Shown: piece by piece, positions 40,785-64,000 of the stretch
Numbering within the stretch: the first letter of the stretch is position 1
Layout of the letters: every line of letters begins with the position of its first letter
Virus record (IMG/VR): IMGVR_UViG_3300021471_000006
Coordinates: 1 to 64,000 of that record
Source: a virus
Strand: one strand, 5' to 3'
DNA length: 64,000 bases
Position numbers and translations under genes: made by a program
The notes under the pieces: generated by a model
Database searches by the model: none
Told to the model about the DNA's origin: nothing
Seen by the model: only the letters and a program-made list of their open reading frames with translations

Positions 40785-40993
40785 AAATTATGCCAAATGT
40801 AATGCCATGCGGCCACAACGATGTGTGGATGTTTAGAGTCAGAGATAGAGGACGTGTATACAGATATTGCTTAAAATGTCTATTTGACAAAACAGGTATG
40901 GAAGATGTATACTCGAAACCAACATCAGTAGAAACTGCAGTAAAGCCTAAAGTAAAAGAAGATAAATTAAAAAAGAAAAAATATAAGAAATGA
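40781..40993 (+). CDS. Small Zn-binding hypothetical protein
   Basis: PCGH...YCLKC. Confidence 0.45.
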   Translation: MKIMPNVMPCGHNDVWMFRVRDRGRVYRYCLKCLFDKTGMEDVYSKPTSVETAVKPKVKEDKLKKKKYKK

Positions 40994-43900
40994 GAACATA
41001 TTCAGATATATACAGAGATTTTTTAAAGTGGATGTACGATAAGACAGAGAATCCAAACTATCTTTGGGAAAATTTCTTTAAAAAATATGGAGAACAAGAA
41101 GGCAAGGCACTTCTCTATAAGTTTATTTTAGAACTTTGCTATGATTCTAAAGATGGAATGTATTATTTTATTAAATTTATAGTAGGAGACCTTATGGACT
41201 TAGGATATCCCAAACCTCTTAGATTCAATGGACTCTTAAGAAAATGGGATAAACTTGTCAAGAAATATAAACATCTTGCCATTTTATCTGCAAGAGGACA
41301 TGGAAAGACTGTTTTCTTTAGTGAGTTATTAAATGTCTATGACATGTTCTTATTTCCTTATAGAAGAGTAATAATAATTTCTGCGTCTCAAGACCAGGCA
41401 ATTCATATTCTTAATGAAATAAAAAATATTATTAAGAATAACGAATGGCTTAGTTCTAAAATATATGGCGGAACTTGGGCAAATGAGAGAATAGAATTCA
41501 ATAAAGGCTATATTATAGCTCGTGGAGTCGGTTCAGAGATTCTTGGTCAGCATGTAGACAGAATAGTAATAGATGATATAATAAGAACTGACATGAAATT
41601 ATCCGACCAAGAGATAGAAGACTATATTGATATGAATTTAGAACCTATGTTATTAGAAAGAAAAGGCCAGATAGTTTTAGTTGGTTGTGTAAATGAAGAT
41701 ACTATGGTATTGACAGAGAACGGATTTGAAAAAATAAAAAATCTAAAGAGAACAGATGAAAAACTGGAACAATATAATAAACCTATCTATGGTATTGACG
41801 GTTTTAATATAGCTACAGAAATCTTCGATAATGGAATAAAGGAAACCAAAAAAATAACGTTCCAATATGGATATGAACTTGAATGCACACCAAACCATCC
41901 ATTGCTAGTCTTAGACAAAGATGGAAGACTAATATGGAAGCGAACTGAAGAACTAACTAAAGAAGACTATATAGCGCTACAATATGGACAAGATGTTTTC
42001 GGACAAGATGATAAACTTCCTAGTATCTCTATAGCAGAATATAGAAAATATAATAAATTAAAAATAAATAAGATAACAGACGAATTAGCATACATATTAG
42101 GTCTTTATCTAGCTGAGGGCTCTTATTATAAGGAAGATTCAATTACTATTACAAATACAGAACTTGGAGAGAAATTATTAAATAATTCCATTGGAATGAA
42201 ATTTATGGACAAGAGAAACGACTCAGCACATTATACTTACCACTCAAGATATTTTGTGAGACTTCTAAAACAACTTGGTTTTAAGTTAGAAAAGTGTAAC
42301 TTAAAAGAGTTTCCAGATTTATGGAAATGGAAAAGAAATTTAATTATTTCATTCTTACGTGGATATGCTGATGGAGACGGATGTGTCACTGGAAATGAGG
42401 TAAAATTCACCAGTACAAGTAAAAAACTTCTTAAACAGATTCAATTAATTCTTTTAAATTTTGGAATAATAAGTTCCCTACATTCATATGATGGAAGGGG
42501 AGTTAAAAGAAATTCTGGTTTTAAAGTAAAACATATAAGATATGATTTAGTAATCTTAAGACCTTTCGTAAGAAAATTTTATGAGACGATTGGATTTGGA
42601 CTTGATAGAAAACAAAGAAAACTCAAGAAAATCTCTAAAGATTCAGATATACTAATTCCAAATATGTATAAGCTTTTGTATAAAGCTCTACAAACTACTA
42701 AGAAAAAAACAAATATAGGCAAGAACAATTACATCTATGGAAATTATAAAAAGAATCCAAAAATTAGTAAAAGACTACTTGCTTTTTTTGTAAATGAGTT
42801 AAAAAGAGAAAAAGCAAATAAATCTTTAATCGAAAAATTAGAATATTATCTGAGCACAAACTATTTCTTTGTGAATCCAGTATCTATAGAAGATGGAAAA
42901 TCAAGAACTATGGATTTTATAATACCTGAGACTCATTCATTTGTAGCCAATGGAGTAATGAGTCATAATACTCCAAAAAGAGCTGGAGATATTTTTAATA
43001 CGATTTTCCAGAGAGTAAAACTAGAACCGAAGACTTCTTGGAAAATAAGAAAGTTCCCTGCAATATTAGACTACGAGAAAAGAATTCTCCAATGTCCAGA
43101 CAGATTTACTTGGGAAGAGTTAATGGCTAAAAGACTTGCCATGACATCTCTTAAATTCGCTAGAGAATATCAGCTTGAATTTTTTTCAAGAGACCTCAGT
43201 CTTTTTCCAGCAGAGATAATTCAGCCAGCTAAAGATAGAGGGGGTGAGAAAGTTTTACTTAGAAAACTAGATAAAAGAACAGGAAATTGGATAATAGTAG
43301 GAGGCATAGATGTGGCAAGGGCCGGAACTGTATCTGGAGATTATACTGTAGTATTTTTAATAGCTTTTAATACAGTAACAAATGTTAAAGAAATCATCTA
43401 TATGTGGAGAGAAAAAGGACTAAAGATTAGTCTACAAGCAGAGAAAATAGCGGAGATAAGTAGAAAATTTAATCATCCATATTTTTTAGTTGAACAAAAC
43501 AATATGGGGCAAGAAATGTTAGAGAGACTGGCAGACATGAATGTAAATGTAGAGGGATTTACTACTGGAGCCAGAGGACAGAAAAAAGATGAACTAATTA
43601 GATTCTTAATAACTGCCTTCGAATATGAGCATATGATAATTCCCAGAGGAGATGAACATAGTCGTTATATGATGGACATACTTGAGGACGAACTTAGTAA
43701 ATTCTGTGTGACAAAAACACCAGCAGGCAATGAGAGATTCGAAGGCGTGGGTGCACACGATGATAGTTTGTGTGAAGGAACTTCTATAATAACCAATAAA
43801 GGTATTAAAAATGTTGAAGATATTAAAGTAGGTGAATACGTTTTGACCCATAAAGGTCGTTTTAAAAAGGTTGAAAAAACGATGTCAAAAACTTGTAATA

Positions 43901-45051
43901 GGACAAAAATTACTATAAAACCTTATGGTAACTTAAAATTTAGTCTTACTGATAATCATAAGTTGTTTGTAATGAAAAAACCTAAAAATAATATTAGAAA
44001 ACGTTTAAAAACAGATATTTATGAAATAGATTCGCAATATATTGATAAAGATAAGCATTTATTAATAAGTCCTATAAATAGAGAAGTTAAAAAAGTTGAT
44101 TTTATTGATATGAAAGATTATTTTTCAACTTCGGATGGTTGGATGTATAATGACGAATATTATTGGAATTATCGTTGGAAAGAAAAACGTTATAAAAGAT
44201 TCATACCAGTAGATAAAGAGTTTGCTTTTTTTATGGGTTGGTATGTTGGAGACGGTAGTATTAATAATTTTGTTTTTCATAAAAAAGATGAAGAATTAAC
44301 TAATAGAATAATTGGGTACGTTGAGAGTTTGGGTGTTAATGTTAGAGAACATTCTTATAATGATAATTATAGAGTTTTTGATTTTTGTTGTATACCGTTC
44401 CAAAACTTTTTAAAAACTCTCGGTAAGAGAGAAAACAAGCATTTACCAGAATTCATGTCTTTTTTAAATTCTGAATTACAAAAAGAAGTTATTAAAGGTT
44501 ATTGGAGCGCCAATGGAAGTGTTGTTAGAGAAAGAATGATTGCTCACACAATTTCAAAATCTTTAGCCTTCCAAATTAGAAACATGTTTTTAAGAAATAA
44601 TATTCCTTGTAATATTAATGAAATAACTAGACACAGATATGATAAACAGAATCTTAATCAGTTTGTTTTAGAAGTTAGCAAGTATTATAAACAAAAGTTT
44701 TATAACGAAAAAATTACAACTCGTGATTTTGGACAATCATTTATTAAAGGAGATTATTTGATTTCGTGCATAAACTGGCACGATTTAGTAATTTCCGATG
44801 AATTATATAATGTGTATGATTTACAGGTTGAAGAAGATAGAAGTTATTGCCCAAATGGCGTAGCTATTAGGAATTGTGTGATGGCCTTAGCACTTGCAAA
44901 CAAGGCGACACAAATAGCTGGAGTACCATTCGCTGTTACTAACTTTGGAGACGATGGAACAAGTGTAAATCATTTATATGAGGGGTTTGGAATAGCGAAA
45001 ACTGGAGAAAGTGACTTGGTCAATCAGATATTGAGTGGTATTATAAAATGA
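40990..45051 (+). CDS. terL: Terminase large subunit with two inteins (~555 aa after splicing)
   Basis: Walker A RGHGKT, Walker B IVIDD, coupling motif VG|TP, FAREY, nuclease GIDVA and HDD|CVMALALA. Confidence 0.96.
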   Translation: MRTYSDIYRDFLKWMYDKTENPNYLWENFFKKYGEQEGKALLYKFILELCYDSKDGMYYFIKFIVGDLMDLGYPKPLRFNGLLRKWDKLVKKYKHLAILSARGHGKTVFFSELLNVYDMFLFPYRRVIIISASQDQAIHILNEIKNIIKNNEWLSSKIYGGTWANERIEFNKGYIIARGVGSEILGQHVDRIVIDDIIRTDMKLSDQEIEDYIDMNLEPMLLERKGQIVLVGCVNEDTMVLTENGFEKIKNLKRTDEKLEQYNKPIYGIDGFNIATEIFDNGIKETKKITFQYGYELECTPNHPLLVLDKDGRLIWKRTEELTKEDYIALQYGQDVFGQDDKLPSISIAEYRKYNKLKINKITDELAYILGLYLAEGSYYKEDSITITNTELGEKLLNNSIGMKFMDKRNDSAHYTYHSRYFVRLLKQLGFKLEKCNLKEFPDLWKWKRNLIISFLRGYADGDGCVTGNEVKFTSTSKKLLKQIQLILLNFGIISSLHSYDGRGVKRNSGFKVKHIRYDLVILRPFVRKFYETIGFGLDRKQRKLKKISKDSDILIPNMYKLLYKALQTTKKKTNIGKNNYIYGNYKKNPKISKRLLAFFVNELKREKANKSLIEKLEYYLSTNYFFVNPVSIEDGKSRTMDFIIPETHSFVANGVMSHNTPKRAGDIFNTIFQRVKLEPKTSWKIRKFPAILDYEKRILQCPDRFTWEELMAKRLAMTSLKFAREYQLEFFSRDLSLFPAEIIQPAKDRGGEKVLLRKLDKRTGNWIIVGGIDVARAGTVSGDYTVVFLIAFNTVTNVKEIIYMWREKGLKISLQAEKIAEISRKFNHPYFLVEQNNMGQEMLERLADMNVNVEGFTTGARGQKKDELIRFLITAFEYEHMIIPRGDEHSRYMMDILEDELSKFCVTKTPAGNERFEGVGAHDDSLCEGTSIITNKGIKNVEDIKVGEYVLTHKGRFKKVEKTMSKTCNRTKITIKPYGNLKFSLTDNHKLFVMKKPKNNIRKRLKTDIYEIDSQYIDKDKHLLISPINREVKKVDFIDMKDYFSTSDGWMYNDEYYWNYRWKEKRYKRFIPVDKEFAFFMGWYVGDGSINNFVFHKKDEELTNRIIGYVESLGVNVREHSYNDNYRVFDFCCIPFQNFLKTLGKRENKHLPEFMSFLNSELQKEVIKGYWSANGSVVRERMIAHTISKSLAFQIRNMFLRNNIPCNINEITRHRYDKQNLNQFVLEVSKYYKQKFYNEKITTRDFGQSFIKGDYLISCINWHDLVISDELYNVYDLQVEEDRSYCPNGVAIRNCVMALALANKATQIAGVPFAVTNFGDDGTSVNHLYEGFGIAKTGESDLVNQILSGIIK
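41686..42969 (+). mobile_element. Intein 1 of TerL (428 aa, LAGLIDADG)
   Basis: Starts CVNEDT, block B CTPNHPL, GLYLAEG and GYADGDG, ends FVANGVMSHN followed by Thr. Confidence 0.95.
43765..44874 (+). mobile_element. Intein 2 of TerL (370 aa; Ser start, Arg-Asn end; possibly degenerate LAGLIDADG)
   Basis: Starts SLCEGT after HDD, block B LTDNHKL, GWYVGDG and GYWSANG, ends VYDLQVEEDRSY..NGVAIRN followed by Cys. Confidence 0.92.
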
Positions 45052-45148: not shown

Positions 45149-45346
45149 ATGGATAAGTTAGACTTTGAGAACAAAATATTAGAGTCTCTAAAATCTCTTC
45201 TAGGTTATGACGATAGATTAGTAATTCAAGAGGCTAAGATACATATTGGAACAAATATGCTTCCGGAAATAGAAGTGAAGTCTGTTATTGCTCCACACGG
45301 AGCCAAGTGCAAAGTAGTAGATAACTGGAGAGAAAGAATAGAATGA
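45149..45346 (+). CDS. Small protein ending in the W-tag (VVDNWRERIE)
   Basis: GAGGTGA SD; C-terminus matches the motif of the 55.4-59.3 kb array. Confidence 0.55.
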   Translation: MDKLDFENKILESLKSLLGYDDRLVIQEAKIHIGTNMLPEIEVKSVIAPHGAKCKVVDNWRERIE

Positions 45347-55414: not shown

Positions 55415-55654
55415 ATGGCATATAAATATCCGGAAGGCACAGAAATCCTTTGCATTAAAAATGGAGAGCCTTTTGTAGCAGGAAGAATATATACTGTCTA
55501 TCATAGTGAGAGGTGGAGAGAGGCTCACGGCTATAGGTTTAAAGATGTTGAGTGGGAAGAAGACCCGGGCTGGTCTCAGTCCTTTATTGAAAGTCCCGAC
55601 TATTTTAAGAAAGTAGAGAAAAAGGTAACAAGTTGGAGAAAATTAATAGAATGA
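55415..55654 (+). CDS. Small SH3-like protein with the C-terminal W-tag
   Basis: YPEGTEILC...; ends KKVTSWRKLIE. Confidence 0.65.
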   Translation: MAYKYPEGTEILCIKNGEPFVAGRIYTVYHSERWREAHGYRFKDVEWEEDPGWSQSFIESPDYFKKVEKKVTSWRKLIE

Positions 55655-55723
55655 AATTCAAATTAGGATTTAAAGAGAGAGACCTAGAACTTAATAATAT
55701 AAACTTCTGGAGGCGTCATTTAA

Positions 55724-55951
55724 ATGGGGAGATTTAAAGTGGGAGACAAAATTAGATTTATTGAAAACGGAGACTTTTTACATAATGATTACGGTATTAG
55801 TGAAAGTTGTGCAGGTCATACGGGAACTATTGTTGCGGAATACAGGAACTCTGAATATAGTATCAGATGTTCCTGTGGAATATTATGGTTGGCTTTTGAA
55901 AGACATTTTACGTCCCCGAGAATAGATAATTGGAAAAAGGTAATAGAATGA
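55724..55951 (+). CDS. Small SH3/KOW-like protein with the C-terminal W-tag
   Basis: FKVGDKIR...GHTGTI; ends RIDNWKKVIE. Confidence 0.7.
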   Translation: MGRFKVGDKIRFIENGDFLHNDYGISESCAGHTGTIVAEYRNSEYSIRCSCGILWLAFERHFTSPRIDNWKKVIE

Positions 55952-56235
55952 CAATAGACCCAGAAACGAAAGAAGAACACATTAGTCCCGTTGGATTAGA
56001 ACATCAGGGACCCCAAATTAGTAAAGGAGGCATTTATTATGCTAACATTAAACTTAGGCATTGGATTATCTGTCTTATTCAAGACGCATACCCGGAACTA
56101 AAAGAACGTATGACTAACAACCCAAATGCCATTAACATCCTGTCGGCATTCATAGCTTTAGTTCCACTACAGACTAAGGGGAAACTAACTCCCGAGTTAA
56201 AAAGAAAAATATTAAAAAATTATAAACTAATATAG
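55948..56235 (+). CDS. Hypothetical protein
   Basis: ATGA-coupled start MTIDPETK. Confidence 0.5.
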   Translation: MTIDPETKEEHISPVGLEHQGPQISKGGIYYANIKLRHWIICLIQDAYPELKERMTNNPNAINILSAFIALVPLQTKGKLTPELKRKILKNYKLI

Positions 56236-56243
56236 GTGATAAA

Positions 56244-56513
56244 ATGACAACACTTTACAATAGTAGGTACGACCATTTTAGACGTGGTAGAGTAAGTATA
56301 GAAACTGCAGAAACAGGCAGAAGCAAGTGCCAGAAATGTAATAGAATAATAGGTAAGGGAGAGCCCCGACTTGTTTACGACGGATATAATTATAAATATT
56401 GGTGTAATGCCTGCACTTTAAGAGAGTTAAAAAGGGAATTTGAAAAATTAGAGAAAATCTTGAGTGTTTCTTGGAGAGCCCGAATAGAGGCAGAGCCAGA
56501 GGTGGAAAGATGA
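56244..56513 (+). CDS. PARP-type zinc-finger-like protein with a W-tag
   Basis: ETAETGRSKCQKCNRIIGKGEPRL...WCNAC resembles zf-PARP; SVSWRARIE near the C-terminus. Confidence 0.6.
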   Translation: MTTLYNSRYDHFRRGRVSIETAETGRSKCQKCNRIIGKGEPRLVYDGYNYKYWCNACTLRELKREFEKLEKILSVSWRARIEAEPEVER

Positions 56514-56630
56514 AACTAATCTTTAATATGTATATAAAGAGAGAAGATATGGGAAAAGAAGAGGCTAAGAAACTTGCAATAGAAACCGGTATAGCAATAC
56601 AAGATTTTCAAATGAAATATCCTGTAGAGT

Positions 56631-56975
56631 TTGAAGGTGTTGAATTTGAAGATTGACCTATCTGTTTACAGTTTAGTTTTTCGAGCAAAAGAACTTAACT
56701 CAAAGTTCTCCCTAAAAGAGGGAGACTTAATCGTAGCTAGAAAGGAATGTCATAATGATATGGAAAAGAAAGTTGTAGAGGTAATACAAGTAAATCACCC
56801 AATAGAAAAAAAAGGATATGTAGTTAAAGTTTTAGAGAATATGGACACACGCCTATTACCGAGATTTTCCTCTGGAACAATTTGGAATATGAGGCATATG
56901 AAAAACTCTATACATACGGACTGCGACATATATAGAAAAACTAAAATAAAAAGTTGGAGGGAGAAAATAAGATGA
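56631..56975 (+). CDS. Small SH3-like protein with the C-terminal W-tag
   Basis: LKEGDLIV...; ends KIKSWREKIR. Confidence 0.6.
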   Translation: MKVLNLKIDLSVYSLVFRAKELNSKFSLKEGDLIVARKECHNDMEKKVVEVIQVNHPIEKKGYVVKVLENMDTRLLPRFSSGTIWNMRHMKNSIHTDCDIYRKTKIKSWREKIR

Positions 56976-57595
56976 AAATAACAACCGTGAATGGTAAAGA
57001 AATTAAGAAAGATATGCTTGAGGAACTGTCCCCAAGGATAGAGGATATTAGAAAATGGTTTGAGAAACAAGAGTTTTATAAAACGGATGAATTATGTCCA
57101 GATTATTTTGAACTAATCTATTCTCCGGAATGTATTAAATTAATTAAATCCAGAGTAGACCTTACTATGCTAACAGAAATAAATCCTGAGGCTGTTAATT
57201 GGTATGACTTAATAAGACAAAACGAAAGGGAGGTAGAAGATATGAGTCCGGAAATACTAGAGAAACGATATGAATTTGAAGAAACAGGCATTTGTGAAGA
57301 ACACATATTAGTACCCACAACGCCGTTCAAGACAGCTGCCGGAGAATTTAAAGTAGAGAACTGTGCAATATGTAGACAGGCATGGGTAACAATAGGAGAA
57401 ACAACTTACCAAGACGATTTACTTAAATTACTTAGGTGGATAGCATACATAAGCATTAAACAGGAGCAAAAAGAGAAGAATGTTAAAGACATTATGAACT
57501 TATTGGGGCTCGAAGAAGAAAAGAAACAACAAATAATAGTGGGCGATTTAATGACTACAACAAACCCGTCTAAAGAACTAATGGAGATAATTTAA
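56972..57595 (+). CDS. Hypothetical protein with Cys/His cluster
   Basis: ATGA-coupled start MKITTVNG; CEEH...CAIC. Confidence 0.55.
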   Translation: MKITTVNGKEIKKDMLEELSPRIEDIRKWFEKQEFYKTDELCPDYFELIYSPECIKLIKSRVDLTMLTEINPEAVNWYDLIRQNEREVEDMSPEILEKRYEFEETGICEEHILVPTTPFKTAAGEFKVENCAICRQAWVTIGETTYQDDLLKLLRWIAYISIKQEQKEKNVKDIMNLLGLEEEKKQQIIVGDLMTTTNPSKELMEII

Positions 57596-57820
57596 ATGGA
57601 AAATTTTACCTTTGGTGATATAGAAATAGGAGATAAGTTACTAATGGGAGAACGACAACGCAGAATTAGTTTTCCTGTTGTTGAAATTCATAAAAAATCT
57701 AATAAGGTCTCAATTAGAAAGTTAAGCGGATATATATATAAAGTAAATCCTCTAAAATATTCGGCACTTAGAAAGTCCAAAAAGAAAAAAGTTAAATCTT
57801 GGAAAAGGTTAATAGAATGA
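57596..57820 (+). CDS. Small SH3-like protein with the C-terminal W-tag
   Basis: DIEIGDKLL...; ends KVKSWKRLIE. Confidence 0.65.
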   Translation: MENFTFGDIEIGDKLLMGERQRRISFPVVEIHKKSNKVSIRKLSGYIYKVNPLKYSALRKSKKKKVKSWKRLIE

Positions 57821-58056
57821 AAAGTATTAAAGTCAAAAACTTTATAATAGAAGAAGGAGATATATTAGGAAATAACCATTATTGGTATAAGGTTTTGAAA
57901 CTTTATCTTCCCAAGAAGAAAGGCTGTTTTATAGCACAGCTTGTTCAAATCGAAAATAACAAAGAGAAAGGGCTTCCATTTGATTATGAGGACTTTGATT
58001 GGATTACAAAAATAAAGAAATCTAAAATTAAAAATTGGAGGGAGTACATTGAATAA
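57817..58056 (+). CDS. Small SH3-like protein with the C-terminal W-tag
   Basis: IEEGDIL...; ends KIKNWREYIE. Confidence 0.65.
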   Translation: MKSIKVKNFIIEEGDILGNNHYWYKVLKLYLPKKKGCFIAQLVQIENNKEKGLPFDYEDFDWITKIKKSKIKNWREYIE

Positions 58057-58318
58057 AGAAATTAAAATAGGCGATGAAGCAAGAATAAATCCTGACATTA
58101 CTTGTGAACTATGCGGAGCTAGAGAGGTACTTGTTAAAACTAATTTAGGAACTTGGGTGTCTAATCTAATTTACTATATGGGACAACTTGTTTGTAAGGA
58201 CAGAGCAGATTGTATTAGAGCTCGGGAACTTAATAGCATAGGAGTTTACGGTATTGATAACGGAATTATAGTTGAACAAAATGGAGAAACTATTTTTGAG
58301 GCGTTTAAAGAAAAATGA
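58049..58318 (+). CDS. Zn-binding hypothetical protein
   Basis: CELC...CKDRADC. Confidence 0.5.
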   Translation: MNKEIKIGDEARINPDITCELCGAREVLVKTNLGTWVSNLIYYMGQLVCKDRADCIRARELNSIGVYGIDNGIIVEQNGETIFEAFKEK

Positions 58319-58872
58319 TTAAACTAACGGCAGAACAAATCTATAATTTATTTGTCCACAGAAAGGATGTATTCGCAAGACAATACAAAGGTGGCTTTTA
58401 TATTCCCGTTAGAAGACCCATAACAGTTGCAGATATAGAAAAACATTTAAGAGGAGAGGCAACATATGGACTGTATTGTTTAGATTTAGATAATACAATA
58501 AAGTGGGCTTGTATAGATTTAGACGCAGATATAAAGGGAGAGAATAAGGAAGCAGAGTTACGCCGGATGGAAAAAGACAGCAAAGTTATTTATGAATTAT
58601 TCCACGATTTCCCTAGAATGAGAGAGTTTAGTGGTAGAAAAGGTTATCATATTTGGATATTTTTTAATCCGCCCGTAACAGCAGAATTTGGGAGAACTTT
58701 AGTTCGTGCTAGACTAAATAGCATTCAGGCCCTAAAACACGAGGTATATCCGAAACAAACTGAACTAAATAAAAATCGAAAGTATGGAAATTTAGTTAAA
58801 ATTCCGCAAGCAGTTCATCAGGTTTCAGGAAAACGAAGTAAAATACTTGAAATGTGGGGTATAAGACTATGA
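58315..58872 (+). CDS. Stand-alone archaeo-eukaryotic primase (AEP) catalytic domain, TOTE-primase-like
   Basis: KHLRG..TYGLY, WACIDLD, EFSGRKGYHIWIFF, EVYPKQ...GNLVKIP. Confidence 0.88.
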   Translation: MIKLTAEQIYNLFVHRKDVFARQYKGGFYIPVRRPITVADIEKHLRGEATYGLYCLDLDNTIKWACIDLDADIKGENKEAELRRMEKDSKVIYELFHDFPRMREFSGRKGYHIWIFFNPPVTAEFGRTLVRARLNSIQALKHEVYPKQTELNKNRKYGNLVKIPQAVHQVSGKRSKILEMWGIRL

Positions 58873-59120
58873 GAAAGTTCAAGATAGGAGATAGAGTAAA
58901 ATTAATTAACAAAGATATGGTGTTTTTTAAAGTGGGAGAAACGGGTACTATAAGATGTTTTTACGAGGGTGCTAGACCAGATGTGGGAGTTGAATGGGAT
59001 ACTAAAAGTAATCATAGACACTCTTTACACGGAAACTGCAAAGAAGGATACGGCTATTATGTTTTTGAGGAAGATTTAGAACTAGAAAAGATAAAAAGCT
59101 GGAGGGAACTGTTAAAATGA
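58869..59120 (+). CDS. Small SH3/KOW-like protein with the C-terminal W-tag
   Basis: FKIGDRVK...GETGTI...VGVEWD...GYYV.EEDLEL; ends KIKSWRELLK. Confidence 0.7.
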   Translation: MRKFKIGDRVKLINKDMVFFKVGETGTIRCFYEGARPDVGVEWDTKSNHRHSLHGNCKEGYGYYVFEEDLELEKIKSWRELLK

Positions 59121-59326
59121 AATTTAAGGTTGGAGAGATAGTAAGACAAATAAAAAATCTATCGAAAAGTGAAGACCCGTTATGTGAGATAGTGGAAATA
59201 AGAAAAATCGGAAAAAAAACAGAAATAGTGCATAGGCACTTAAATAAGGATTTTACATCTAGTGCCCTTGAAGACAACTTTGAAAAAGTTGAAATTGATA
59301 ATTGGAGGAAGATTATTGACGTTTGA
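59117..59326 (+). CDS. Small SH3/KOW-like protein with the C-terminal W-tag
   Basis: MKFKVGEIVR...; ends EIDNWRKIIDV. Confidence 0.7.
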   Translation: MKFKVGEIVRQIKNLSKSEDPLCEIVEIRKIGKKTEIVHRHLNKDFTSSALEDNFEKVEIDNWRKIIDV

Positions 59327-60201: not shown

Positions 60202-60400
60202 TTATGTTTCTGGCACGAAAAGGTAAGCCCAGTTAGTAGGACGAAGAATAGTATCTCGTGTTTTTAACGAGAGAAGGTAGTAGTCTATTTGATACGTGTT
60301 TGGTACGGATCCGGGGGACATTTTAGTCCCCCTTCATTTTTATTTTCCCTTATCGGGGATTAGGGAAGTTAAAATATGTCCCCACAAAAAAACAGTATTG
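60202..60400 (+). promoter_or_regulatory. Structured intergenic leader of the Ubl operon (terminator hairpin with an alternative pairing partner)
   Basis: GGGGGAC/GTCCCCC hairpin 60313-60332 plus T-run; the same arm is complementary to ATGTCCCC 60376-60383; further stems CTCGT/ACGAG and TTCCCT/AGGGAA. Confidence 0.5.
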
Positions 60401-60414
60401 GAGGTGTCCGCAAA

Positions 60415-60759
60415 ATGGCTACAAAAGGACAATTAGCTAGACAGATGTATGGTAAAGCACTATACGAGTTGTCAGCAGGAGAGAAAGCCGCAGTAACAAG
60501 AGCATTTAACTCACAAGGAGCTTCTAGCTCAAGTGCCACAGTTACAGCTGAAGTGGGAAGAATTGGTGTCAATGGCACCCAAAGATGTATTTTATCCGAG
60601 GGTGAAACAGTTGGCGAGTTAATCGAGCAGTCAGGCTTCAAACTTGACAGCAAGAAAGAAGGAGTTGTTGCTCAATCAACCGGAAAGAGGGTTTTACTTT
60701 CTGAACCTGTTGTACACGGGGAAACCTATGTTATAACACCAGAAATAAAATCAGCTTAA
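60415..60759 (+). CDS. Ubiquitin-like (beta-grasp) protein with an N-terminal helical extension, ending ...PEIKSA
   Basis: GGAGGTG SD; C-terminal ~70 aa VTAEVGRIG..TQRCILSEGETVGELIEQSG...LSEPVVHGETYVITPEIKSA has the ThiS/MoaD/Ubl pattern; first gene of an E2-JAB-E1 operon. Confidence 0.75.
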   Translation: MATKGQLARQMYGKALYELSAGEKAAVTRAFNSQGASSSSATVTAEVGRIGVNGTQRCILSEGETVGELIEQSGFKLDSKKEGVVAQSTGKRVLLSEPVVHGETYVITPEIKSA

Positions 60760-60768
60760 ATAAATTTT

Positions 60769-60790
60769 TTGGGGCATTTGCCCCACTTTT
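60769..60790 (+). terminator. Hairpin between the Ubl and E2-like genes
   Basis: TGGGGC-ATTT-GCCCCA followed by CTTTT. Confidence 0.55.
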
Positions 60791-60822
60791 CATATTCATT
60801 ATACAATAAACGGAGGATTAAA

Positions 60823-62370
60823 ATGATAAAAACATTTGATAAATTTGTATTGGAAAGCTTTATAAGGGAAACTATGAAAGCTTATACTTATAAATGGATA
60901 GACGACAACACCCTAGAATTTTATAAAAAAGACAAGGTTGTTGGAAAATATAAATTAGATAATACACGCATAGAAGCAAAAGGAAAAGTAATAGAGAAAT
61001 TTCTTAAAAACTTAATTAAACAAAAAGAAGAGGCAGATAAGAACAAACTAACAAAACAGAAAGCCGCAAAAAGTGTATTCAAAACAATTTATAACGATTT
61101 GAATAGCTACAACGGACTTGCAGATAATTATATTATGTTTGACCTTATGAATAAACAGTTTAAAAAAATAGGGGTTGAAGAGGTCATAATTAGAAAAACA
61201 ATAAATTCAAATAATCTAGCGCCTAAGAAAATAACTTTAAATATGGACGGAAATCCACAAGAAAGAATAAGCGTTTACAATGATGAAGGATATTATACTA
61301 GATTAAGGGATTTTCTGTTTGCAGAATACGAACACGACGTTAAGGAAAAATCTAGTTTTTATGTTTCTAACAAGCCGAAGTGGCTTTTTCAAGCCGAGAA
61401 CGAGAAAATAAAAGATATTAAACTCCGAAATATGTTAGTTGGAAGATATTATCTGGAAAGAAACTTTATACATTTGTACTTTAATCCGTTTTTAGTTAAA
61501 AAAATTCTTCCATTAGGGTCCGTTATGCCAAAGATATTTATAGAGTTATTTAAGGAGTTACAAAAACTAAATATTAAGGTACGAGATACCTCAAGTTTCT
61601 CTAAAAAAATGTTTGTTGCAACATTTTTAGAAGGTTCCAGAAAAAGACTAAAAAGACTAATTCAGGATAAAAAAGATAATATAAATAGAATAAGTGATAG
61701 AGAAACCCAAATTAGATTAGCCTTAGAAAGGCTTGCAGAGATAGAAGAAGAAACCGCTTTTATTGAAAAGAATATTCGTATGAAAGGAAAAGGAATGCTT
61801 AAGGAACTAGACACAGTTAGAAAGCTAAAATTCATAAAAGATTTAAAAATGGGCACAGATTACATAGAATTAAAATATGTTCCCACAACTTTAACTTTCT
61901 CTGATTTTAAACGTTCAGATAGGGGAAAGGGATATGGGAAGAGAACAATTTATCTAGGAGAGATAACTGCAAGAATAACTCCCGGAAGTTTCACTATTAA
62001 AAACTCAATTAATATAGACAGAGGCGGACACGCACATTCTCACGCAGACGGAAATCCCGGAAGTCCCTGTTTTGGTAGTGGGGGTGGAAGAAATAAAATA
62101 TATGAACTGCTTTCCCAAAACAAGTTTACCGAACTTGCCAAGATACTTTGGTTTTGGATTAAAACCCACAGAAACGAAGGTGCATATGTGAAGATGTGGA
62201 CTATTTATGACTATATGTTGAGCAACGGTTATCCTGTTTGGGACGAAAAGGGCAACAGAATTAAAATTAATGACGCAAAGAGGCTGAAATCCAAAGAGCA
62301 AAGAAAGTTAGATAAGTCCTCAAAATATGCGACTAATATAAAGAAATTCGCCGATTTCAAATTGGTGTAA
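60823..62370 (+). CDS. Coiled-coil protein with a C-terminal prokaryotic E2-like domain
   Basis: GGAGG SD; central coiled coil; YLGEITARI...HAHSHADGNPGSPCFG..IYELL resembles the HPH...CLG active-site region of prokaryotic E2s; operon context. Confidence 0.65.
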   Translation: MIKTFDKFVLESFIRETMKAYTYKWIDDNTLEFYKKDKVVGKYKLDNTRIEAKGKVIEKFLKNLIKQKEEADKNKLTKQKAAKSVFKTIYNDLNSYNGLADNYIMFDLMNKQFKKIGVEEVIIRKTINSNNLAPKKITLNMDGNPQERISVYNDEGYYTRLRDFLFAEYEHDVKEKSSFYVSNKPKWLFQAENEKIKDIKLRNMLVGRYYLERNFIHLYFNPFLVKKILPLGSVMPKIFIELFKELQKLNIKVRDTSSFSKKMFVATFLEGSRKRLKRLIQDKKDNINRISDRETQIRLALERLAEIEEETAFIEKNIRMKGKGMLKELDTVRKLKFIKDLKMGTDYIELKYVPTTLTFSDFKRSDRGKGYGKRTIYLGEITARITPGSFTIKNSINIDRGGHAHSHADGNPGSPCFGSGGGRNKIYELLSQNKFTELAKILWFWIKTHRNEGAYVKMWTIYDYMLSNGYPVWDEKGNRIKINDAKRLKSKEQRKLDKSSKYATNIKKFADFKLV

Positions 62371-62385
62371 ATGGAGGGAATTTAA

Positions 62386-63807
62386 ATGGAATATAAAGCA
62401 AAAGTAGTTTTGTCCTATGATGTATATAGGAGAATAAAGTGGCTAACTCACAATTTCGATAAGGAGATAGCTGCGGTGGGGACCGGAAAAATCCGAAAAA
62501 ATGTCAATGACGAGGAGAAACATTTTTACATAAGTAAATTATATTTTCCAAATCAGAAAGTTACCGGAGCAAGTGTCCACATTACACAAGAAATGTGGGG
62601 AGATATTATCAAGAAAGTTCCTAAAGAAGAGTGGGGAGATATATGCTTCTATTGGCATAAACATCCCGGAAGTGCAAGTCATTCATCCGTAGATGAAGAA
62701 GATACATTTGAAACTTTTATGTCTCCAGAGGCGGGACGTAAGTGGTTTGTTTTCTTGCAAACGGCGGCAAAAGGAGAAGATAGTATGGATATAGAATTAA
62801 GAATAGAATTGAGAGAGCCCATTAGAGCAACTCTTTTAGGTAAATCTGTTACTAAATTAACTTATGAGATAACAAAAGAAGAACTTAAACTTAGGGACAA
62901 GATAGAGAAACTACAGGAGAAAATTGAGGAATTAAGAAACAAACCAAATGAAAGACTAAAGAAGGAGTTGGAAGAAATAATAGAGAATTGTGTAGAGAAG
63001 GACGATTTCTGGAATAAAGATAATTCATATAGAAGAGGCAACTATTATAATTCTTCAAGAGGTCCGCCACCGGAAGACTCCGATATTATAGCATTAAGAT
63101 TACTCTTTGAGAAAGGAGAACAAAATTCAGAGTATATGAACAACGATACTCTTATGGGAGTTCCAACTAGAGATGAAGAAAAGGTTAGTATAGAATTTAA
63201 GAGTGGAGGAGTTTTAATAAAGGCTGGAAAGATGTTTCGTTCAGTTTTACAAAACGCCCTTAAACCGAAAGAAGGTAAATTGGCTAGTGTAGTCAAGAGG
63301 TTTACAATAATAGAGCCAAAAGAAAGTAAAATATTTTACACATACAAACTACAACCAATGAAAAAGGCGTATAAAGTCTTAAAGACAGTAATGAAAAGGC
63401 TATTTATAGCTTATAATGACGCCCTATTAGCTAAATGGGAGAATGAGGGAAGACTGGAGACCCCAAAGAGTGAGCCCCAGAAAATAGAAACGAAAAAGAA
63501 TTTTAAGAAGCCTTTAACTTTAACTCTAAAGAACACACCATTAATAAATGATGTTCTTTCCGAATTAGAAATGGTTGCGGACTTGGATTGGACAAGTAAA
63601 AGATATGCTATCGCATATCAGAGAGGAGAAAAGAAGAATAATAAGTTTGTTCTGGGGTCAGTCTTTAATACCGAACATACTTTGTTAATCTCGGGCGACG
63701 ATATTGTTTCAATTACTAATGCTATAATAGCCGAGCTCTCCGAACAAAAAAATTATTCAGGTGATAAAGTTGAAGAAAAACCAAAAGCAAGAGCAAAAGC
63801 TTCCTGA
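62386..63807 (+). CDS. JAB/MPN+ (JAMM) metallo-isopeptidase with a long C-terminal extension
   Basis: N-terminal EIAAVG, FPNQKVTGASV, WHKHP...HSSVD (HxH-x7-S-x2-D JAMM motif). Confidence 0.85.
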   Translation: MEYKAKVVLSYDVYRRIKWLTHNFDKEIAAVGTGKIRKNVNDEEKHFYISKLYFPNQKVTGASVHITQEMWGDIIKKVPKEEWGDICFYWHKHPGSASHSSVDEEDTFETFMSPEAGRKWFVFLQTAAKGEDSMDIELRIELREPIRATLLGKSVTKLTYEITKEELKLRDKIEKLQEKIEELRNKPNERLKKELEEIIENCVEKDDFWNKDNSYRRGNYYNSSRGPPPEDSDIIALRLLFEKGEQNSEYMNNDTLMGVPTRDEEKVSIEFKSGGVLIKAGKMFRSVLQNALKPKEGKLASVVKRFTIIEPKESKIFYTYKLQPMKKAYKVLKTVMKRLFIAYNDALLAKWENEGRLETPKSEPQKIETKKNFKKPLTLTLKNTPLINDVLSELEMVADLDWTSKRYAIAYQRGEKKNNKFVLGSVFNTEHTLLISGDDIVSITNAIIAELSEQKNYSGDKVEEKPKARAKAS

Positions 63808-64000
63808 AACAAACGAACAAAACGAATTAAATCTCTCAAGGCAAAGTAAACTAATTCCAAAAGATAAAATAACCCAATATACATTAAAAGTATTTGGTGT
63901 AGGAAGTATTGGTAGTCATTTTGTCAAAACGGCTGCAAAGACAGGATTTACTAATATTGAAGTCTTTGATACCGATATTGTGGAAGAAGAAAACATTGCC
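63770..64000 (+). CDS. E1/ThiF-family adenylating enzyme (truncated by the window end)
   Basis: Not in the ORF track. TTG after AGGTGA; reads ...LSRQSKLIP...LKVFGVGSIGSHFVKTAAKTGFTNIEVFDTDIVEEENIA (SRQ, GxGxxG and DxDxVxxxN motifs). Confidence 0.9.
   Translation, partial: MKKNQKQEQKLPETNEQNELNLSRQSKLIPKDKITQYTLKVFGVGSIGSHFVKTAAKTGFTNIEVFDTDIVEEENIA

What the first reader, a model, noticed from the sequence alone, without database searches (positions are those of the whole stretch)
55415..59326. Array of divergent small proteins sharing a C-terminal W-tag, next to the Ubl operon: possible modular adaptor system
Seen in sequence: at least eight small ORFs end in nearly the same motif: VTSWRKLIE (55654), IDNWKKVIE (55951), SVSWRARIE (56244 ORF), IKSWREKIR (56975), VKSWKRLIE (57820), IKNWREYIE (58056), IKSWRELLK (59120), IDNWRKIID (59326). 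An outlier at 45346 ends VDNWRERIE. Their bodies are otherwise dissimilar: mostly SH3/KOW-like 'FKVGD' barrels, and one PARP-type Zn finger. Inference: a variable binding domain plus a constant amphipathic docking helix is the logic of F-box/SOCS-box substrate receptors, so these could recruit diverse host targets to one shared partner, such as the E2/JAB machinery encoded 1-4 kb downstream.
Basis: partly seen in the sequence, partly recalled or inferred. Interest (0 to 1): 0.85.

Follow-up and report, generated by a model that had tools for sequence, protein, structure and literature searches.

The report
Shared tryptophan tail on viral proteins
In a newly seen group of archaeal tailed viruses, a quarter of the small early proteins end in the same nine-residue tryptophan-containing tail, which selection keeps at the protein level and which looks like a common docking peptide whose partner is still unknown.

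Summary
The motif [KR]-[IV]-x-[SN]-W-[KR]-x-x-[IL] ends 9 ORFs in the window and 16 in the 109-kb virus. It also ends about 17 ORFs on a second viral contig and about 9 on a third.

Selection acts on the protein. Synonymous codons at conserved positions match background usage, and Ser uses both codon families. Ortholog trios with about 35% identical bodies keep the tail. There is also an RNA-level overlay: the Arg codon after W is AGG (TGGAGG, a Shine-Dalgarno core) only when the next gene starts within 20 nt.

"Dissimilar bodies" is overstated. About three quarters of the proteins are divergent members of one SH3-like family. At least six unrelated bodies (Zn ribbon, PARP-like Zn fingers, a membrane protein and others) carry the tail as well. 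In the Zn-ribbon protein the tail is a conserved island in a low-confidence, variable C-terminal region.

My best reading is a short basic amphipathic docking motif on a fast-turning-over family of small early proteins.

The only link to the Ubl operon is synteny, conserved in three related viruses. It is untested, and the complex prediction gave no answer.

Other readers of this scan noted the same tail on overlapping windows of this same genome, not on other DNA.

The parts
45152..45346 (+). W-tail gene, 64 aa, non-SH3 body, ends VDNWRERIE; W codon at 45326-45328
   Evidence: no match to the SH3 profile; no Pfam family
55415..55654 (+). W-tail gene, 79 aa, SH3-like, ends VTSWRKLIE; W codon at 55634-55636. 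Orthologues in the two other viruses keep the tail.
55651..55737 (+). Decayed 28-aa remnant of an SH3 W-tail gene (starts MKFKLG, degenerate FWRRHL near its end)
   Evidence: sequence reading
55724..55951 (+). W-tail gene, 75 aa, SH3-like (GRFKVGD), ends IDNWKKVIE; W codon at 55931-55933
56244..56513 (+). W-tail gene, 89 aa, PARP-type Zn-finger-like body. The tail SVSWRARIE is followed by 7 more residues; W codon at 56472-56474.
   Evidence: zf-PARP 21 bits, below cut-off
56631..56975 (+). W-tail gene, about 114 aa, ends IKSWREKIR; W codon at 56955-56957. The orthologue L004:2050-2415 keeps the tail.
   Evidence: E 3e-16
57596..57820 (+). W-tail gene, 74 aa, SH3-like, ends VKSWKRLIE; W codon at 57800-57802
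57817..58056 (+). W-tail gene, 79 aa, SH3-like, ends IKNWREYIE; W codon at 58036-58038. TGGAGG lies 7 nt upstream of the next gene's TTG start.
58049..58318 (+). Untagged 89-aa Cys-rich protein just upstream of the primase. Conserved in all three viruses; listed as a candidate partner only.
58315..58872 (+). AEP primase (TOTE type) embedded in the W-tail array in all three viruses
58869..59120 (+). W-tail gene, 83 aa, SH3-like (RKFKIGD), ends IKSWRELLK; W codon at 59100-59102. This is the modelled member.
59117..59326 (+). W-tail gene, 69 aa, SH3-like (MKFKVGE), ends IDNWRKIIDV; W codon at 59303-59305
60376..64000 (+). Context: Ubl, E2-like, JAB and E1 operon (the E1 gene runs past the window end). 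W-tail genes flank it on both sides in all three viruses.

Best explanation
The W-tail is a short linear motif selected at the protein level. It is about nine residues long, K-[IV]-x-[NS]-W-[KR]-x-x-[IL], basic, and amphipathic if helical. It ends a rapidly diversifying family of small early proteins in a lineage of tailed viruses whose recombinase and replication genes are archaeal (nearest cellular RadA: Thermoplasmatota).

Most carriers are SH3-like beta-barrels. The same tail has also been joined to Zn-ribbon, PARP-like Zn-finger, membrane and other bodies.

The most likely mechanism is inferred, not shown: the tail docks these varied heads onto one common partner, so the family acts as a set of interchangeable adaptors or effectors. 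The partner is unknown. Candidates are a conserved viral protein in the same block (Ubl, E2-like, JAB, E1, the AEP primase, the 89-aa Cys-rich protein), the SH3-like barrel itself, or a host factor.

A second function is overlaid on the same DNA and is shown. When the next gene starts 13-20 nt after the W codon, W-R is written TGG-AGG and supplies that gene's Shine-Dalgarno core. The residues after the tail (IE-stop, IC, IGG) are set by the downstream start region.
For: Non-random and strictly C-terminal:
- 13 of 14 strict motifs lie within 8 residues of a stop, against 0.33 in shuffles.

Protein-level selection:
- At the conserved positions, codons for I, K, N, S and V follow background usage. 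Ser uses TCN (5) and AGY (5).
- Mean nucleotide identity of the 27-nt tail is only 59%. The longest shared word is 18 nt and lies at the stop/start junction, not in the tail core.
- Tails 25-67 nt from any downstream start are equally conserved.

Conservation across lineages:
- L004/L005 carries about 17 tails. The 65-kb contig G002:C2 carries about 9.
- Thirteen or more further metagenomic SH3+tail proteins turned up.
- The Zn-ribbon orthologues (33-40% identical) keep N-W-K-x-x-I-x-G invariant inside a linker of variable length.

Modularity:
- Six or more carriers do not match the SH3 profile.
- In the Zn-ribbon model the last 21 residues, tail included, have pLDDT below 50. This is typical of a linear motif in a flexible tail.

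Fast turnover of the heads beside conserved neighbours.

Physical character of the tail: net charge +2.5 and hydrophobic moment 0.45, against 0.31 for background 9-mers.

Dual coding:
- AGG makes up 11 of 18 Arg codons at +1, against 12% in the background.
- AGG occurs in 11 of 22 tails with a start within 20 nt, against 0 of 18 otherwise (Fisher p 3e-4).
Against: No partner has been identified, and no experiment or model shows binding.

About 75% of carriers belong to one paralogous SH3-like family, so descent alone explains most copies. In the SH3 model the tail is a short helix with fairly high confidence (block pLDDT 85 and 71). It may therefore pack on its own barrel as a structural cap rather than be free for docking.

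The Zn-ribbon model rests on three sequences only.

All three genomes with known context are syntenic relatives, so the co-occurrences are not independent.
Confidence: 0.5

Rival explanations
1. Family heirloom. The tail is just the conserved C-terminal capping helix of one SH3-like paralogue family and has no common partner. The few non-SH3 carriers are chimeras, made when recombination replaced a gene body but kept the 3' end together with the next gene's start region.
For: Nine of 16 carriers in this genome match one SH3 profile, and most carriers in the two relatives look the same. In the SH3 model the tail is confidently placed next to the last strand. The tail plus the following MKFKVGD start is the most conserved part of the tandem unit. 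Two of the non-SH3 carriers sit directly upstream of an SH3 gene.
Against: The Zn-ribbon carrier keeps the tail in four lineages at 33-40% body identity, inside a variable linker. No long nucleotide identity marks recent recombination. Four non-SH3 carriers are not followed by an SH3 gene. A membrane protein and helical proteins cannot use the tail as a barrel cap.
Confidence: 0.22
2. One reading: the tail recruits the variable heads to the virus's own Ubl, E2-like, JAB and E1 machinery, as substrate receptors or as preferred substrates.
For: In all three viruses with known context the Ubl operon lies inside the W-tail array, with tails on both sides. The tail has a nearly fixed Lys at position -4 (22 of 29), which could serve as an acceptor.
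Against: The three viruses are syntenic relatives, which amounts to one evolutionary observation. The AEP primase, a nuclease and a phosphatase are equally syntenic. The closest E1 relatives in cultured phages (FpV4, crAss-like) sit in regions without any W-tail, although I could confirm only the E1 there. The tail does not fit Ubl-binding motifs: LIR needs W-x-x-[LIV] with acidic flanks.
Confidence: 0.12
3. The tail binds something other than a protein. It could be a basic, Trp-containing arm for DNA or RNA, or an in-plane membrane anchor like the MinD/FtsA C-terminal helices.
For: Net charge is +2.5 over nine residues, with an I/W/I hydrophobic stripe. The bodies are folds often used to bind nucleic acids (SH3/KOW-like, Zn ribbons, PARP-like fingers). 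One carrier is a membrane protein.
Against: Some carriers are strongly acidic overall (body net charge down to -22). Only three hydrophobic residues is weak for a membrane anchor. Strict conservation of N/S at -1 and of the spacing suggests a specific pocket.
Confidence: 0.1
4. Purely a nucleotide element: a conserved gene junction (Shine-Dalgarno plus overlapping stop/start, or a recombination linker) that merely translates into a similar peptide.
For: The tail usually overlaps the next gene's start. TGGAGG is enriched when that start is near. A real example of this effect exists: in Citrobacter phage CVT22 two neighbouring SH3-like genes end in LENE because both junctions read TGGAGAATGAAT.
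Against: Synonymous sites are free, and Ser switches codon family. T before GGAG is invariant in the tails, whereas other ribosome sites in this genome mostly have A there. Tails far from any start are just as conserved, especially in G002:C2. Relatives known only as proteins keep the peptide.
Confidence: 0.04

Closest known systems
Poxvirus ankyrin/PRANC (F-box-like) and cellular F-box / SOCS-box substrate receptors
   Same: A viral multigene family with variable binding heads and a constant C-terminal element. In those systems the element docks the heads onto one shared machine.
   Different: Those modules are helical domains of about 40-50 residues with a known partner (Skp1 or Elongin BC). 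The W-tail is 9 residues, shows no sequence similarity to them, and has no known partner. Pfam found no F-box or PRANC.
PIP-box clients of the PCNA sliding clamp (archaeal consensus Q-x-x-[LIM]-x-x-[FW]-[FW], PMC6009593)
   Same: [quoted passage not shown] The virus encodes its own PCNA, RFC and PolB.
   Different: The tail has no Gln. Position 8 is always Lys or Arg rather than aromatic, and an Ile/Leu at +4 is required. The virus's own PolB and an ABC ATPase end in ordinary PIP-like motifs (QNTLNKWGM, KTIEEWF), which differ from the W-tail.
Phage T4 capsid-targeting sequence and encapsulin cargo-loading peptides
   Same: Unrelated small proteins share a peptide of about 10 residues that delivers them to one destination.
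   Different: The T4 signal is N-terminal and is cleaved off. Encapsulin peptides have a different consensus. Nothing here links the tail to the capsid, and the genes lie in the replication/early block.
Small SH3-like phage proteins of unknown function (PHROG 22041 / 7871, DUF4314-like, B. subtilis YorP)
   Same: The body of most carriers. One carrier matches phrog_22041 at E 1.9e-10. Structural neighbours are generic SH3-like barrels.
   Different: The PHROG match ends before the tail (profile columns 1-69 of 77). The cultured-phage example checked (CVT22) lacks the W-tail.

Membership tests
F-box / SOCS-box / PRANC substrate-receptor modules | Helical module of about 40-50 residues recognisable by profile | tested here: not met
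   Pfam scans of 16 carriers found none. The conserved element is only about 9 residues.
F-box / SOCS-box / PRANC substrate-receptor modules | Binds a defined adaptor of a ubiquitin ligase (Skp1, Elongin BC) | not testable with these tools
   No partner is known. The one complex prediction gave no verdict.
PIP-box (PCNA-interacting peptide) | Q-x-x-[LIM]-x-x-[FWY]-[FWY] (PMC6009593) | tested here: not met
   In 29 tails there is no Gln at the corresponding position, and position 8 is always K or R. Only the I-x-x-W spacing matches.
LIR/AIM (Atg8-family Ubl-interacting motif) | [WFY]-x-x-[LIV] core with acidic flanks (from established knowledge) | tested here: not met
   The conserved hydrophobic residue is at +4. 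Position +3 is R or K in 17 of the 29 tails tabulated, and the flanks are basic.
SH3-like small phage protein family (body only) | Five-stranded SH3-like barrel; profile similarity | tested here: met
   Met for nine carriers in this genome (E 1e-14 to 1e-25). AF2 model has pLDDT 79 with five strands. phrog_22041 E 1.9e-10. Not met for six carriers.
PARP-type zinc finger (body of two carriers) | Pfam zf-PARP at the gathering score | tested here: inconclusive
   21.1 and 26.0 bits against a cut-off of 39.3. Only the N-terminal half of the profile matches.
Junction-encoded C-terminus (RBS/start overlap artefact) | Conservation at nucleotide level only, with synonymous sites constrained | tested here: not met
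   Synonymous usage equals background except for Arg+1. Both Ser codon families are used. Tails far from a start are still conserved.

The most novel reading that the evidence does not exclude
The W-tail is the docking code of a virus-owned protein-tagging system. A diversifying set of SH3/Zn-finger heads would bind host (for example defence) proteins, and the tail would hand them to the neighbouring Ubl, E2-like, JAB and E1 machine. That would be a prokaryotic-virus counterpart of F-box/SOCS substrate receptors.
Probability: 0.1. Interest if true: 0.92.

Novelty: new variant of a known kind. Interest (0 to 1): 0.6.

Why it matters
Short docking motifs shared across a viral multigene family are well known in eukaryotic viruses. 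I found no description of one for viruses of archaea or bacteria in four literature searches.

If the tail is a docking peptide, one pull-down with it should reveal a central hub that this virus group exploits. It would also assign a working logic to a quarter of its otherwise blank early genes.

The data also give a clean example of dual coding: one hexamer, TGGAGG, is shaped both by a peptide motif and by the next gene's ribosome-binding site.

The link to the virus-encoded ubiquitin-like system would be important if real, but is currently only synteny.

Tried and rejected
Complex prediction:
- E2-like + E1 (residues 1-250) + Ubl (14-127) against the SH3 W-tail protein gave no answer (median 0.28, mark 0.32). 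This counts neither for nor against binding. It used the single job, so tail against PCNA, AEP or the SH3 barrel could not be tried.

Searches for more relatives that found nothing useful:
- Single-protein word search.
- IMG/VR scans with the JAB protein, three W-tail proteins and an E2-like alignment.
- Two family alignments were too divergent for pattern scans.
- A DNA pattern for N/S-W-K/R-x-x-I-E-stop in IMG/VR gave 17 single chance-level hits and no arrays.
- One W-tail protein against GTDB genomes found nothing.
- The SH3+tail profile was not found in the 401 Thermoplasmatota genomes searched, apart from two weak tail-less hits.
- tblastn of the E2-like protein against cultured phages found nothing.

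Host mimicry:
- The tail-plus-stop pattern in four Thermoplasmatota genomes gave one hit, at control level.

Ideas considered and set aside:
- The PIP-box idea was set aside on sequence grounds.
- Literature searches found no prior description.


Full report
**What the window is.** The window is the first 64 kb of a 109,485-bp IMG/VR virus record, 77% complete by CheckV. It is a tailed virus:
- a large terminase interrupted by inteins, a portal and a capsid protein;
- a replication set of archaeal type, with RadA (Rad51 family, 239 bits), an RFC-like clamp loader, family-B polymerase, a B12-type ribonucleotide reductase, a divergent PCNA and a TOTE-type AEP primase.

The nearest cellular RadA sequences are from Thermoplasmatota, at about 50% identity.

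**Observation.**
- Across the whole genome there are 16 carriers, all on the + strand between 45 and 75 kb, plus a decayed 28-aa remnant at 55651-55737.
- The consensus is [KR]-[IV]-x-[SN]-W-[KR]-x-x-[IL].
- The strict motif occurs 14 times in six-frame ORFs, and 13 of these lie within 8 residues of a stop. Codon-shuffled genomes give 1.2 and 0.33.

**Protein or nucleotide?** The tail usually overlaps the next gene's start (ATGA), so a junction artefact had to be excluded. I found a real example of that artefact elsewhere: two neighbouring SH3-like genes of Citrobacter phage CVT22 both end in LENE because both junctions read TGGAGAATGAAT. The W-tail behaves differently:
- At the conserved positions the synonymous codons of Ile, Lys, Asn, Ser and Val follow genome usage. 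Ser at -1 is written with TCN five times and AGY five times.
- The 27-nt tail is only 59% identical between copies. The longest shared word (18 nt) is the stop/start junction, not the tail core.
- T before GGAG is invariant in the tails, whereas ordinary ribosome sites in this genome mostly have A there.

There is nevertheless an RNA-level overlay:
- Arg at +1 is AGG in 11 of 18 cases, against 12% in the background.
- AGG occurs in 11 of 22 tails whose downstream start lies 13-20 nt after the W codon, and in 0 of 18 tails that are farther from a start (p 3e-4).

So TGG-AGG doubles as a Shine-Dalgarno core. The residues after the tail (IE-stop, IC, IGG) are dictated by the downstream start region. 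It holds, but only as a secondary layer.

**Relatives.**
- An exhaustive profile search found 13 or more further small proteins in metagenomes with the same build, KFKVGD ... LEL-x-K-I-x-N-W-K-x-x-I.
- Two metagenome contigs (L004, L005) carry about 17 carriers in 12 kb.
- A 65-kb contig binned in a 'Planctomycetia' MAG (G002:C2) is a closer relative, with RadA 72% and terminase about 60% identical. It carries about 9 carriers.
- In all three viruses the arrays flank the same conserved block: an 89-aa Cys-rich protein, the AEP primase, an MT-like protein, Ubl, E2-like, JAB and E1.
- The carriers themselves show little one-to-one orthology, while these neighbours are 40-58% identical.
- Where orthologues exist the tail is kept. 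One trio is G55415 / L004:11221 / C2:26058. Another is G56631 / L004:2050. The clearest case is the acidic Zn-ribbon protein in four lineages, where N-W-K-x-x-I-x-G is invariant inside a linker of variable length.

**Bodies.**
- Nine carriers in this genome match one SH3-like profile.
- The AF2 model of the 58869-59120 protein is a five-stranded barrel whose last strand is followed by a short helix formed by the tail (pLDDT 79).
- Structural neighbours are generic SH3-like domains and uncharacterised small phage proteins.
- The PHROG match stops before the tail.
- Six carriers do not match the profile: two PARP-like Zn fingers (sub-threshold), the acidic Zn ribbon, a membrane protein and two others.
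- In the Zn-ribbon model the last 21 residues, tail included, have pLDDT below 50. That model rests on three sequences only.

'Otherwise dissimilar bodies' is therefore overstated, but the tail is not confined to one fold.

**Mechanism.** The tail carries a net charge of +2.5 and has an I/W/I stripe that would form one face of a short helix. I read four things together as the signature of a short linear docking motif on a diversifying set of small early proteins:
- protein-level selection;
- retention in a variable, low-confidence tail;
- presence on unrelated bodies;
- fast turnover of the heads.

The partner is unknown. The closest E1 relatives in cultured phages (FpV4, crAss-like) lie in regions without any W-tail. 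The complex prediction gave no answer and is not evidence either way.

PCNA binding is unlikely. The tail lacks the Gln and the second aromatic residue of the archaeal PIP consensus (PMC6009593), and the virus's own PolB and an ABC ATPase end in ordinary PIP-like motifs.

One alternative that I could not test is that the SH3-like barrel is itself the receptor of the tail. The tail is placed with fairly high confidence in the SH3 model but not in the Zn-ribbon model. The two models differ greatly in alignment depth (32 against 3 sequences), so this contrast is only a hint.

**Verdict.** I found no published description in four literature searches.

Noticed in passing
L103-L106 (G002:C2, CAYVYZ010000002.1, 65,191 bp): A contig binned in a 'Planctomycetia' MAG is in fact a close relative of this archaeal-type virus. 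RadA is 72% and the terminase about 60% identical, and it has the same Ubl/AEP block and W-tail genes. It is probably mis-binned.
   Followed up: partly
L006:815-1135 (Citrobacter phage CVT22, KP774835.2): Two adjacent SH3-like small genes end in SLENE and NLENE because both junctions carry the identical TGGAGAATGAAT (SD plus overlapping stop/start). This is a clear case of a C-terminal 'motif' created by the junction alone.
   Followed up: partly
window 40990-45051; G000 81938-84946 (L001:17938 onward): The large terminase is interrupted by intein/Hint and LAGLIDADG domains, apparently two insertions. The class II ribonucleotide reductase also carries a LAGLIDADG insertion.
   Followed up: no
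G000 87892-90264 and 85008-86501 (L002): PolB ends in QNTLNKWGM and an ABC-type ATPase ends in KTIEEWF. Both are PIP-box-like C-termini that fit the virus-encoded PCNA at 80087-80794.
   Followed up: no
L004:9244-9964: Three consecutive carriers end in RIGGSQ, RIGGLQ and RIGGSNGI. The I-G-G codons (ATAGGTGG) look like the GGTG-type ribosome site of the next gene, so the Gly-Gly is probably junction-encoded rather than a ubiquitin-like tail.
   Followed up: partly
L025:761-1693 (E1, G000 63761-64693): The E1 carries a highly acidic C-terminal tail of about 60 residues. The tail is shorter in the L004 orthologue. It could attract basic peptides such as the W-tail, but this was not tested.
   Followed up: no
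window 58049-58318: An untagged 89-aa Cys-rich protein directly upstream of the AEP primase is conserved in all three viruses. It may be the primase's zinc-binding partner.
   Followed up: no
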